Shown: positions 57,275 through 58,138 of the stretch, one piece after another
Layout: every line of letters starts with the position of its first letter
How positions within the stretch are numbered: the first letter of the stretch is position 1
NCBI RefSeq assembly: GCF_003018235.1
Contig: NZ_CP027437.1
Source of the DNA: Escherichia coli
Lineage (GTDB): Bacteria > Pseudomonadota > Gammaproteobacteria > Enterobacterales > Enterobacteriaceae
Direction: 5' to 3' (one strand)
Length of the DNA stretch: 64,000 bases
Notes under the pieces: generated by a model
Database searches by the model: none
What the model was told of the DNA's origin: nothing
Seen by the model: only the letters and a program-made list of their open reading frames with translations
Position numbers and translations under genes: made by a program

Positions 57275-57559
57275 TTAGACTTCTTCTATTTCATATTTTA
57301 TAGACAATTCATGAAAGGCAGTAAATACCAGTGAAAATAATTTATCTCTATCACTTCCATTTAAATTATTTACAATGAAAAAACCATCCTCATGATCTTC
57401 TATTGAAAAATCAATCCAGTTTGAATAACTAGATGGAATCCAAAGTGAACCATCAGTATTAATCCGAGAGGATGGTTGATTTTCTTTTATTCTCTCGACA
57501 ATAAAAGAAAGTAAATTATCTACTTTATCATCAACATGTATAATATATTCAACACTCAT
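57275..57559 (-). CDS. Putative immunity protein for the orphan Rhs toxin tip (94 aa, AT-rich)
   Basis: Small acidic ORF immediately downstream (12-nt gap) of the orphan toxin fragment; assignment by genomic context only. Confidence 0.55.
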   Translation of the reverse strand: MSVEYIIHVDDKVDNLLSFIVERIKENQPSSRINTDGSLWIPSSYSNWIDFSIEDHEDGFFIVNNLNGSDRDKLFSLVFTAFHELSIKYEIEEV

Positions 57560-57571
57560 TAATTTCTTGCC

Positions 57572-58024
57572 TTATGCGCCGCACCCATGGGCTCGCCCTC
57601 GTTTTGTAGGATAATCATTTGGATTCCTGATCCCTATGTGTGTTTCATTCGGATTAGTACTCGGAATGCCTCTGTCATTCAGAGGTACCTCACCGGGATC
57701 ATATTTATGCACATGTGCGTTAGCCCCAGACTTAGGTAATGGATCACCGTTTTTCATCGTCATACTTTGATTTCCATAGGGATCGACACGAACTTTAGAG
57801 CCATCAGCGTGACTCCATGTCTGATTCCCGGTACTTGTTTGTTTATCCAAATTGAATCCATTATCAGTAAGAATAGAACCTATTGCCCCTGGGGATCTTC
57901 CTTTTAATTGAGGCAAATCAGAGGCGGCACTTAATCCAAGAGGATCTATCCATCCAAGAGGGTTAGGCGCATAAGCATACAGGTTTAACCCACCCGCCAG
58001 CCCTATCGGATCAGTACACAGATA
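57572..58024 (-). pseudogene. Orphan Rhs C-terminal toxin module (displaced tip), with a premature stop in its short core remnant
   Basis: Encodes ..[31 protein letters not shown] followed by a ~115-aa variable domain; core remnant upstream ([15 protein letters not shown]) is cut by an in-frame TAA at 58025..58027; no ATG start for the fragment. Confidence 0.7.
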
Positions 58025-58138
58025 TTACCACGTCTCGCAATCATAGTACCGGAACCGATGATAGTACAGTCCCGCGTCATGCTATTAAAGACAATGTAGT
58101 GCGATGATATGTGTCATCCCTCAATTATTTTTATAAAA

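What the first reader, a model, noticed from the sequence alone, without database searches (positions are those of the whole stretch)
57275..58078. Orphan Rhs toxin cassette with its own immunity gene, bounded by a ~70-nt repeat of the Rhs core end
Nt ~57930..58000 are about 85 percent identical to the main rhs segment ~58980..59050 (the [19 protein letters not shown]..DPLGL-encoding region), followed by a completely different ~115-aa tip and a 94-aa downstream ORF. This is the classic substrate for tip switching by homologous recombination. The orphan core remnant carries an in-frame TAA (58025..58027) and has no ATG, so it is silent as it stands but would be fused to the core by a single recombination.
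Basis: seen in the sequence. Interest (0 to 1): 0.6.

Follow-up and report, generated by a model that had tools for sequence, protein, structure and literature searches.

The report
Orphan Rhs toxin–immunity cassette
Downstream of a complete E. coli Rhs toxin gene lies a spare, unexpressed toxin tip (probably a DNase) with its own intact immunity gene, an already well-described arrangement whose short, diverged repeat makes it a weak substrate for toxin switching.

Summary
On the minus strand, 57922-58015 repeats the main rhs core end (58991-59084) at 77/94 nt (82%, E 1e-21). A different 119-aa tip and a 94-aa ORF follow, and the in-frame TAA at 58025-58027 is real.

The "ready to switch" reading is only partly supported. 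Homology is 94 nt at 82%, with a longest exact run of 16 nt, against 522 bp at 95% in the proven Salmonella case.

Comparative breakpoints do show that cassettes have been exchanged at this block. The TAA-bearing remnant matches strain R32_14_1F, while the cassette matches other loci from position 58015 onward. E. coli 06-00048 carries this tip on a window-main-type core.

Known kind, new member, modest interest.

The parts
63330..63782 (-). 150-aa DcrB/DUF1795 (Eag-type chaperone family) gene immediately upstream of the main rhs
   Evidence: Pfam DcrB PF08786, E 1.1e-18. ORF.
58647..63311 (-). Main full-length rhs gene (1554 aa): N-terminal AARxxDxxxH (prePAAR-like) motif, PAAR motif, DUF6531, YD-repeat core, Rhs-associated core end, then its own 117-aa tip (59000-58650)
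   Evidence: NCBIfam RHS_core, YD_repeat and Rhs_assc_core. Pfam PAAR_motif and DUF6531. GC 57-69% in the core against 26-45% in the tips. The main tip has no Pfam or NCBIfam family.
58991..59084 (-). Main copy of the conserved core-end block ([28 protein letters not shown] plus 9 nt)
   Evidence: Repeat family D3, 82% to the orphan copy. BLAST E 1.3e-21.
58139..58645 (-). 168-aa ORF directly after the main rhs stop: presumed immunity gene of the main tip
   Evidence: The ATG lies 1 nt after the rhs TAA. No Pfam or NCBIfam family. Its last 66 nt are retained in E. coli R32_14_1F.
58016..58138 (-). AT-rich spacer plus a decayed remnant of an older, different Rhs core end (58078-58016: [20 protein letters not shown]), with the in-frame TAA at 58027-58025
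   Evidence: Translation. Only 57% identical to the main core. 96.8% identical to the remnant in E. coli R32_14_1F, which has the same TGG TAA.
57932..58015 (-). Orphan copy of the conserved core-end block ([28 protein letters not shown]). It is the left edge of the portable cassette and the only plausible crossover zone.
   Evidence: Repeat D3. In L001, L005, L006 and L013-L017, homology to the window starts at 58013-58015. Alignment A6.
57572..57931 (-). Orphan toxin tip, 119 aa plus stop. It belongs to an unannotated polymorphic-toxin C-terminal domain family with a PT7-like (DNase) fold.
57275..57559 (-). 94-aa cognate immunity gene of the orphan tip
   Evidence: Homologues at 77-97% identity, all 94 aa. 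Homologues at 26-48% identity lie directly after tip homologues, including in the full-length Rhs operons L007 and L018. dN/dS 0.048-0.33. AF2 pLDDT 88.6.
57224..57287 (-). Intrinsic-terminator-like hairpin (16-bp stem, then UUUUUAU) overlapping the immunity stop codon. The right edge of the cassette (57264) lies in its loop.
   Evidence: Inverted repeat I1. Fold dG -33.8, z -7.2. Cassette homology ends at 57264 in six loci.
56466..57174 (-). Left end of an H-rpt/ISAs1 (ISEc1, ydcC-like) element with an internally deleted transposase ORF. It bounds the rhs array.
   Evidence: NCBIfam transpos_ISAs1 matches residues 29-134 only. 97% identical to ydcC-region sequence in L001 and L002, with about 750 nt missing.

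Best explanation
The region is an orphan (dissociated) Rhs C-terminal toxin/immunity module at the end of the E. coli rhsE-locus T6SS Rhs operon.

Anatomy, 5' to 3' on the minus strand:
- main rhs
- main immunity gene
- AT-rich spacer
- a 63-nt decayed remnant of an older core end, with a TAA
- an 84-nt conserved DPIGL...DPLGL block
- a 119-aa toxin tip
- a 94-aa immunity gene
- a terminator

The portable unit is 58015-57264: core-end block, tip and immunity gene. It was installed behind a pre-existing dead remnant by recombination whose left crossover fell at the start of the conserved block.

The toxin is a member of a widespread, so far unannotated polymorphic-toxin domain family. Its fold matches the PT7 Mg-dependent DNase, so it most likely degrades DNA in target cells when carried by a full-length Rhs. 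This step is inferred.

In this genome the toxin has no delivery domain and no usable start, so it is not deployed.

The 94-aa gene is intact and selectively maintained. It is probably transcribed by read-through from the rhs operon, because the only strong terminator follows it (inferred). It would then protect the cell against neighbours that fire this toxin.

The cassette also acts as a stored alternative warhead. Recombination in the conserved block can attach it to a core, as natural chimeras show. With 94 nt at 82% identity this must be rare within a strain. It is more likely an evolutionary, HGT-scale process than a frequent switch.
For: Repeat and anatomy.

Locus identity: nhoA-yddH is 99.1% identical to E. 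coli CE10 and IAI39. Synteny with the rhsE/ydcC/yddH/nhoA region of R32_14_1F.

T6SS Rhs context: DcrB/DUF1795, PAAR, DUF6531 and Rhs core.

The tip is a real toxin domain. There are 94 clusters, always C-terminal, after Rhs DPxGL or PT-HINT. It sits in the active position in VgrG-DUF2169-PAAR-Rhs (L007, tip 71% identical). It does the same in VgrG-DUF1795-Rhs on plasmid CP045666 (83%).

Immunity: conserved length and position in every locus read. dN/dS 0.048.

Tip dN/dS is 0.044, with 17 synonymous against 3 non-synonymous differences.

The immunity gene is kept where the toxin is lost. In Salmonella L003 an IS replaces the toxin. In Escherichia sp. L015 the toxin is broken and the 94-aa gene is intact.

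Mosaic junction at about 58015.

Natural core/tip chimera in E. coli 06-00048: 97.7% to the window's main core over 1474 nt, plus 93% to the orphan cassette.

Terminator. No minus-strand terminator was found between the main immunity gene and the orphan.

The architecture matches published descriptions of dissociated tips and orphans (PMC2935791; PMC3967940).
Against: No expression data exist. Read-through transcription of the immunity gene is inferred only from the absence of a detected terminator, and the promoter scan is no better than chance (7 sites found against 9.4 expected).

The DNase assignment rests on fold similarity alone. A profile of the family does not find PT7 by sequence at E<=10. 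The tool did not report which residues superpose. The immunity model does not resemble PIM7; only generic alpha/beta sandwich matches came back.

Purifying selection on the tip may have acted while it sat on full-length Rhs genes in donor genomes, rather than in the orphan state.

The direction of the events that produced the mosaic and the 06-00048 chimera cannot be determined from these comparisons.
Confidence: 0.8

Rival explanations
1. Ready-to-fire switch. Within growing populations of this strain, RecA-mediated crossover between the main core end (59084-58991) and the orphan block (58015-57922) regularly produces cells whose full-length Rhs carries the orphan tip, as in evolved Salmonella LT2. 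Under this reading the cassette's main role is intrachromosomal tip switching.
For: The geometry is right. The two copies are direct repeats in the same codon register, and the block lies downstream of the TAA, so a crossover gives an in-frame fusion. The process was shown experimentally in Salmonella (PMC3967940). E. coli 06-00048 carries exactly a window-main-type core joined to this tip.
Against: Homology is 94 nt at 82%, with a longest perfect run of 16 nt. The Salmonella case had 522 bp at 95%. From established knowledge, efficient RecBCD/RecA recombination in E. coli needs roughly 23-27 bp of uninterrupted identity, and mismatch repair strongly suppresses recombination at this divergence.

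The crossover would delete the main immunity gene. A prior duplication would therefore be needed, as argued in PMC3967940.

None of 5,426 complete E. coli genomes has this tip on a full-length Rhs at this locus.
Confidence: 0.2
2. Internal toxin-antitoxin-like module. The orphan tip is transcribed from a promoter in or near the core remnant and translated at low level from a non-ATG start (CTG or TTG). It would then act inside the producing cell as a type II TA-like pair with the 94-aa protein, as reported for Salmonella Rhs orphans.
For: Starsta et al. (PMC7043789) showed P2 promoters in the core end and CTG-initiated toxic products for the Salmonella main and orphan tips. The window's main core end aligns to that P2 region, with TCGACA-17-TACAAT at 59155-59127. 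In-frame CTG codons lie at 58021, 58000 and 57982 and a TTG at 57916, all downstream of the TAA. Strong purifying selection on a tip that is an orphan in all three close copies fits continued use.
Against: In the orphan the sequence corresponding to the P2 -35 element is replaced by unrelated spacer, and the -10 equivalent is TACTAT/TATCAT with no suitably spaced -35. No Shine-Dalgarno-like sequence precedes the candidate starts. The promoter-like site at 58196-58169 is one of 7 found against 9.4 expected by chance.
Confidence: 0.15
3. Pure relic. The whole cassette is a non-functional leftover of C-terminal displacement, drifting toward loss, and neither gene matters to the cell.
For: The core remnant upstream of 58015 is clearly decaying: G to W, a nonsense TAA, and 57% identity to the main core. 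Related arrays contain broken tips (L015) and IS insertions (L003). Jackson et al. regard dissociated tips as generally silent.
Against: Both ORFs are intact. The tip has 17 synonymous against 3 non-synonymous differences versus 06-00048, and the immunity gene has 9 against 2. The immunity gene stays 94 aa in every copy, including loci where the toxin is destroyed. The terminator hairpin is intact.
Confidence: 0.08

Closest known systems
Orphan rhs-CT/rhsI modules of Enterobacteria (Poole et al. 2011, PMC3150448; Koskiniemi et al. 2014, PMC3967940; 'dissociated tips' of Jackson et al. 2009, PMC2935791)
   Same: It lies downstream of a full-length rhs and its immunity gene. It retains a piece of the core including PxxxxDPxGL and lacks the delivery region and a start codon. 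It carries an unrelated AT-rich toxin tip with its own immunity gene. The same tip sits in the active position on full-length Rhs proteins in other genomes.
   Different: The retained core homology is very short and diverged: 94 nt at 82%, against 522 bp at 95% in LT2, and against near-identical core fragments in Serratia and E. coli clade IV. The remnant derives from a different core lineage than the present main gene. It is itself a mosaic of an old TAA-bearing remnant and a separately circulating cassette.
PT7 polymorphic-toxin DNase and PIM7 immunity (Bacillus cereus; PDB 8OWU; Nachmias et al., bioRxiv 10.1101/2021.10.19.465003)
   Different: No relation is detectable at the sequence-profile level. 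The tip is about 40 residues longer (119 against 76 aa). It is attached to T6SS Rhs or PT-HINT rather than LXG/T7SS. The immunity protein does not match PIM7 by fold search. DNase activity has not been tested.
symE-interleaved orphan arrays at E. coli rhs loci (seen here in strains 06-00048, R32_14_1F and Escherichia sp. MOD1)
   Same: Cassettes share the same left edge at the DPIGL block and the same right edge at the hairpin. The very same tip and immunity pair occurs there at 92-98% identity.
   Different: In those arrays each cassette is preceded by an antisense symE gene and a near-zero core remnant (YDPDFD*IA*FDPIGL). In the window the cassette follows the main immunity gene and a 63-nt remnant of another core, and no symE is present.

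Membership tests
Orphan (dissociated) Rhs-CT/immunity module | [quoted passage not shown] | tested here: met
   Main rhs 63311-58647, 168-aa ORF 58645-58139, orphan 58078-57275, all on the minus strand.
Orphan (dissociated) Rhs-CT/immunity module | Retains a fragment of the conserved core end with the PxxxxDPxGL motif, homologous to the upstream rhs | tested here: met
   [28 protein letters not shown]. 77/94 nt identical to the main copy, E 1.3e-21. NCBIfam Rhs_assc_core 35.1 bits against a cut-off of 32.5.
Orphan (dissociated) Rhs-CT/immunity module | Lacks the N-terminal delivery region and a translation start | tested here: met
   Core homology begins at 58078. There is an in-frame TAA at 58027-58025 and no in-frame ATG or GTG. 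The first canonical in-frame start is a TTG at 57916, with no Shine-Dalgarno sequence.
Orphan (dissociated) Rhs-CT/immunity module | The tip is a toxin domain that occurs on full-length Rhs proteins elsewhere | tested here: met
   P0035 (1548 aa), P0038 (1620 aa), P0054 (1428 aa), L011 (1389 aa), and CP045666 Rhs (1453 aa) in a VgrG-DUF1795-Rhs operon.
Orphan (dissociated) Rhs-CT/immunity module | A cognate immunity gene lies immediately downstream and co-varies with the tip | tested here: met
   A 94-99-aa MS[IV]EY...EE homologue follows the tip in all loci read. Tip/immunity identity pairs are 83/48%, 84/46% and 71/40%.
Orphan (dissociated) Rhs-CT/immunity module | The tip is toxic and is specifically neutralised by its immunity protein | not testable with these tools
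   Requires expression assays.
LT2-type main/orphan switching substrate (Koskiniemi 2014) | A long, near-identical homology tract between main and orphan (522 bp, 95%) that supports frequent homologous recombination | tested here: not met
   94 nt at 82%, longest exact run 16 nt. 72% over 157 nt, compared with PMC3967940.
PT7 DNase toxin family | Shared three-dimensional fold | tested here: met
PT7 DNase toxin family | Detectable sequence or profile homology to PT7 | tested here: not met
   A profile of 57 family members and the single sequence both fail to find 8owu among PDB sequences at E<=10. No Pfam family.
PT7 DNase toxin family | Catalytic Asp/His residues (PT7 D37, H47) conserved in equivalent positions | tested here: inconclusive
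   The family has invariant H73, H75 and H98 and near-invariant D43 and D86. The fold tools did not report the residue-level superposition.
PT7 DNase toxin family | Mg-dependent DNase activity | not testable with these tools
   Biochemical assay needed.
PT7 DNase toxin family | PIM7-like immunity protein | tested here: not met
   The immunity model (pLDDT 88.6) gives only generic alpha/beta sandwich matches. No 8owu immunity chain appears in the top 60.
T6SS prePAAR Rhs effector with Eag chaperone (the main gene that would deliver the tip) | N-terminal prePAAR motif and PAAR domain, a DUF1795 chaperone gene upstream, and a linked vgrG | tested here: inconclusive
   AARQGDALLH is present at residues 7-16. 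PAAR_motif E 2e-05. DcrB/DUF1795 E 1e-18. A vgrG would lie beyond the window end at 64000 and could not be checked.

The most novel reading that the evidence does not exclude
Two linked readings remain open.

(a) The tip defines a widespread polymorphic-toxin nuclease clade that is absent from Pfam and NCBIfam. It would be a remote, enlarged relative of the 'novel-fold' PT7 DNase, paired with its own conserved ~95-aa immunity family and used by T6SS Rhs and PT-HINT carriers from Enterobacteria to Bacteroidota and Planctomycetota.

(b) The ~90-nt DPIGL...DPLGL block acts as a portable recombination site. It would let tip and immunity cassettes be swapped even at silent orphan positions behind dead remnants, so orphan arrays turn over independently of the expressed gene.
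Probability: 0.45. Interest if true: 0.4.

Novelty: new member of a known kind. Interest (0 to 1): 0.3.

Why it matters
Orphan Rhs cassettes are thought to be both immunity reserves and stored warheads in bacterial warfare. This example adds three things.

First, it gives a toxin/immunity pair without any database family a testable assignment. The toxin has a PT7-like DNase fold with invariant His residues, and a conserved 94-aa partner follows it.

Second, it shows clean natural breakpoints. Cassettes are exchanged exactly at the short conserved core-end block, even behind a dead remnant.

Third, it is a useful counter-example for annotation. The presence of a core-end repeat does not by itself make an efficient switching substrate.

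None of this changes the accepted picture of Rhs biology.

Tried and rejected
- Pfam and NCBIfam scans of both tips and both downstream ORFs found no family beyond the Rhs core end. One spurious Tcp10_C hit appeared at E 0.004.
- Sequence searches of the PDB with the family profile and with the single tip found nothing meaningful.
- The PT7 sequence could not be obtained from the preprint or its supplement, so catalytic-residue equivalence was not checked.
- An Rfam scan of 56000-59500 gave no RNA family.
- The promoter and terminator consensus scan was no better than shuffles. It also missed the hairpin because the loop is 10 nt.
It was repeated with 8 close sequences.
- P0002 (Pectobacterium) context was not on record.
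- Lovett 2002, on short-homology recombination, is not held in the library.
- The phage collection has no copy of the tip, and only chromosome-like megaplasmids carry it. This gives no support for a small episomal pool.

Full report
**Observation**

Everything lies on the minus strand. A 1554-aa rhs ORF (63311-58647) is followed 1 nt after its stop by a 168-aa ORF (58645-58139). An AT-rich spacer comes next, then a short stretch that again encodes an Rhs core end.

The repeat finder and BLAST agree. 57922-58015 matches 58991-59084 at 77/94 nt (82%) without gaps. E is 1.3e-21 against the whole window, and the main rhs is the only other copy. A weaker extension, 58040-58074 against 59109-59143, is 77% identical and shares the 1069-nt offset. 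Overall identity is 72% over 157 nt.

The stated partner coordinates are 19 nt out of register.

The orphan frame reads [49 protein letters not shown]|SAAS... The TAA is at 58027-58025, and there is no in-frame ATG. The tip is 119 aa. A 94-aa ORF (57559-57275) follows. A 16-bp hairpin with a U-run (57287-57224, dG -33.8, z -7.2) overlaps its stop.

GC content falls from 57-69% in the core to 26-45% in the tips and small ORFs.

**Context**

The flanking nhoA-yddH segment is 99.1% identical to E. coli CE10 and IAI39. Gene order matches the rhsE/ydcC/yddH/nhoA region. The window is therefore E. coli, at the rhsE locus.

The main gene has Rhs core, YD repeats and the Rhs-associated core end. Its N-terminal third has a PAAR motif and DUF6531, and an AARxxDxxxH motif sits at residues 7-16. 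A DcrB/DUF1795 gene lies directly upstream. This is the layout of a T6SS prePAAR Rhs effector with an Eag-type chaperone. The window ends before any vgrG.

The cassette is rare in E. coli. Of 5,426 complete genomes, one carries the tip and immunity pair and one carries the remnant.

**The tip is a genuine toxin domain**

An exhaustive phmmer search of 1.84 billion representatives finds 94 clusters. The domain is always at the extreme C-terminus. It follows either an Rhs DPxGL motif or a PT-HINT domain, and the carriers include proteins of 1407-2626 aa.

Two contexts show it in the active position:
- A VgrG-DUF2169-PAAR-Rhs operon (L007, tip 71% identical).
- A VgrG-DUF1795-Rhs operon on a 465-kb enterobacterial plasmid. 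The tip there is 83% identical, and the Rhs also starts with a prePAAR-like motif.

Neither Pfam nor NCBIfam has a family for it.

A 57-sequence alignment has invariant H73, H75, G88 and H98. D43, D86, N71, K76 and R113 are near-invariant.

8OWU chain C is PT7(Bc), a polymorphic toxin described as a Mg-dependent non-specific DNase of novel fold (bioRxiv 10.1101/2021.10.19.465003).

Sequence profiles do not connect the two. I could not obtain the residue-level superposition. The DNase assignment is therefore an inference from fold, not a demonstrated family membership.

**The 94-aa ORF is the cognate immunity gene**

Close homologues at 77-97% identity are all exactly 94 aa. They come from Salmonella enterica and Kluyvera intermedia.

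In every locus where a tip homologue was read, an ORF of 94-99 aa follows directly. It starts MS[IV]EY and ends EE-x. These ORFs are 26-48% identical to the window's where homology is detectable. They track tip divergence, with tip/immunity identities of 83/48%, 84/46% and 71/40%. They reach as far as Chitinophagales and Pirellulaceae MAGs.

Against the E. coli 06-00048 copy, the immunity gene has 9 synonymous and 2 non-synonymous differences (dN/dS 0.048). The tip has 17 and 3 (dN/dS 0.044). Against Kluyvera the tip ratio is 0.05.

Two loci keep the immunity gene while the toxin is destroyed:
- Salmonella L003, where an IS abuts the last ~80 nt of the tip.
- Escherichia sp. L015, where the tip is broken and the 94-aa gene is intact.

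The immunity model (pLDDT 88.6) is a small alpha/beta sandwich with only generic structural neighbours, and it does not resemble PIM7.

**How the cassette got there**

Comparison with related loci gives sharp breakpoints. In eight loci, homology to the window begins at 58013-58015. These are L001, L005, L006 and L013-L017. In seven of them it ends at 57264, inside the hairpin loop. In L013 it runs on to 57175.

Upstream of 58015 each locus is different:
- In L013, L015 and parts of L001 and L002 there is an antisense symE gene and an almost vanished core remnant (YDPDFD*IA*FDPIGL).
- In Kluyvera there is a remnant of another core.
- In 06-00048 there is 1.47 kb of core that is 97.7% identical to the window's own main core.

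Conversely, the window's 58204-58016 is 96.8% identical to unannotated DNA at the same locus in E. coli R32_14_1F. That stretch covers the last 66 nt of the main immunity gene, the spacer and the TAA-bearing remnant. Identity to R32 falls to 72.7% from 58015 onward.

The orphan is therefore a mosaic. An old, decaying remnant (G to W, plus a nonsense codon) shared by two lineages is joined to a separately circulating cassette. The junction lies at the start of the conserved DPIGL block, 10 nt after the TAA.

This is direct comparative evidence that the short block serves as a crossover site. It also shows that this tip has been attached to at least three different cores. It fits the C-terminal displacement and tip-pool picture of Jackson et al. 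(PMC2935791). One difference is that here the dissociated core fragment is not near-identical to the upstream gene.

**Is it a ready switch?**

A crossover in the 94-nt block would delete 1069 bp, comprising the main tip and its immunity gene.

The experimentally shown case used 522 bp at 95% identity and needed a prior duplication to keep the main immunity gene (PMC3967940). Here the tract is 94 nt at 82%, with a longest exact run of 16 nt.

From established knowledge of E. coli recombination, this falls below the minimal efficient processing segment of about 23-27 bp, and mismatch repair acts against diverged sequences. Intrachromosomal switching should therefore be very rare. I rate frequent switching at about 0.2. 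I favour exchange on evolutionary or HGT timescales, with immunity as the day-to-day function.

**Internal expression as a TA-like module**

This rival follows PMC7043789 and remains possible. The main core end aligns with the Salmonella P2 promoter. In-frame CTG and TTG codons exist after the TAA. In the orphan, however, the -35 region is replaced by spacer and no ribosome-binding site is evident.

**Verdict**

The switching interpretation is right in form but overstated in likelihood.

The finding is a new member of a well-known kind. It has two modest points of added value: an unannotated PT7-like toxin family with its own immunity family, and clean evidence for cassette exchange at the core-end block. 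Interest is 0.3.

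Noticed in passing
window 58650-59000 (main tip) and 58139-58645 (168-aa ORF), minus strand: The active tip of the main Rhs and its presumed immunity gene also have no Pfam or NCBIfam family. At megablast level they are absent from 5,426 complete E. coli genomes, except for the last 66 nt of the 168-aa ORF, which survives in strain R32_14_1F. The toxin's activity is unknown.
   Followed up: partly
window 59127-59155, minus strand: A promoter-like site (TCGACA-17-TACAAT) inside the main core end aligns with the internal P2 promoter reported for Salmonella rhs genes. 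The orphan copy has lost the -35 part.
   Followed up: partly
window 53389-54746, plus strand: An IS3-family element (two ORFs of 176 and 240 aa; NCBIfam transpos_IS3, E 1e-88) sits between yddE (PhzF isomerase, 52395-53288) and nhoA. These two genes are adjacent in E. coli R32_14_1F.
   Followed up: partly
window 56466-57174, minus strand: The H-rpt/ISAs1 (ydcC-like) element next to the array has an internal deletion of about 750 nt relative to R32_14_1F. This leaves a 187-aa chimeric ORF of which only residues 29-134 match the transposase model.
   Followed up: partly
window 57175-57264: A ~90-nt segment between the cassette's hairpin and the H-rpt end is shared only with L013 and the Salmonella loci L003 and L004. 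The other copies of the cassette lack it, and its origin is unexplained.
   Followed up: no
L001 (E. coli 06-00048) 3763-9089; L015 922-3816; L002 4324-4584: In other Escherichia orphan arrays each cassette is separated by an antisense SymE-family type I toxin gene, and the core remnant is reduced to about the DPIGL block. The window's array has no symE.
   Followed up: partly
L003 (Salmonella enterica GCA_006881245.1) 8942-10285; L015 1598-2079: The immunity gene is retained intact at 94 aa while its toxin is truncated by an IS (Salmonella) or broken to a 65-aa ORF (Escherichia sp.). This pattern suggests selection for orphan immunity.
   Followed up: partly
window 57940-57965 against L013 and L001: Within the conserved block the window encodes NPLGW where the otherwise 98%-identical L013 copy encodes NPVSW. 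The window's GGGTTAAACCTGTAYGCTTATGCGCC stretch is closer to its own main copy than those of R32_14_1F and E. coli 06-00048 are, though L013 has the same stretch. This could be a small gene-conversion patch or chance.
   Followed up: no
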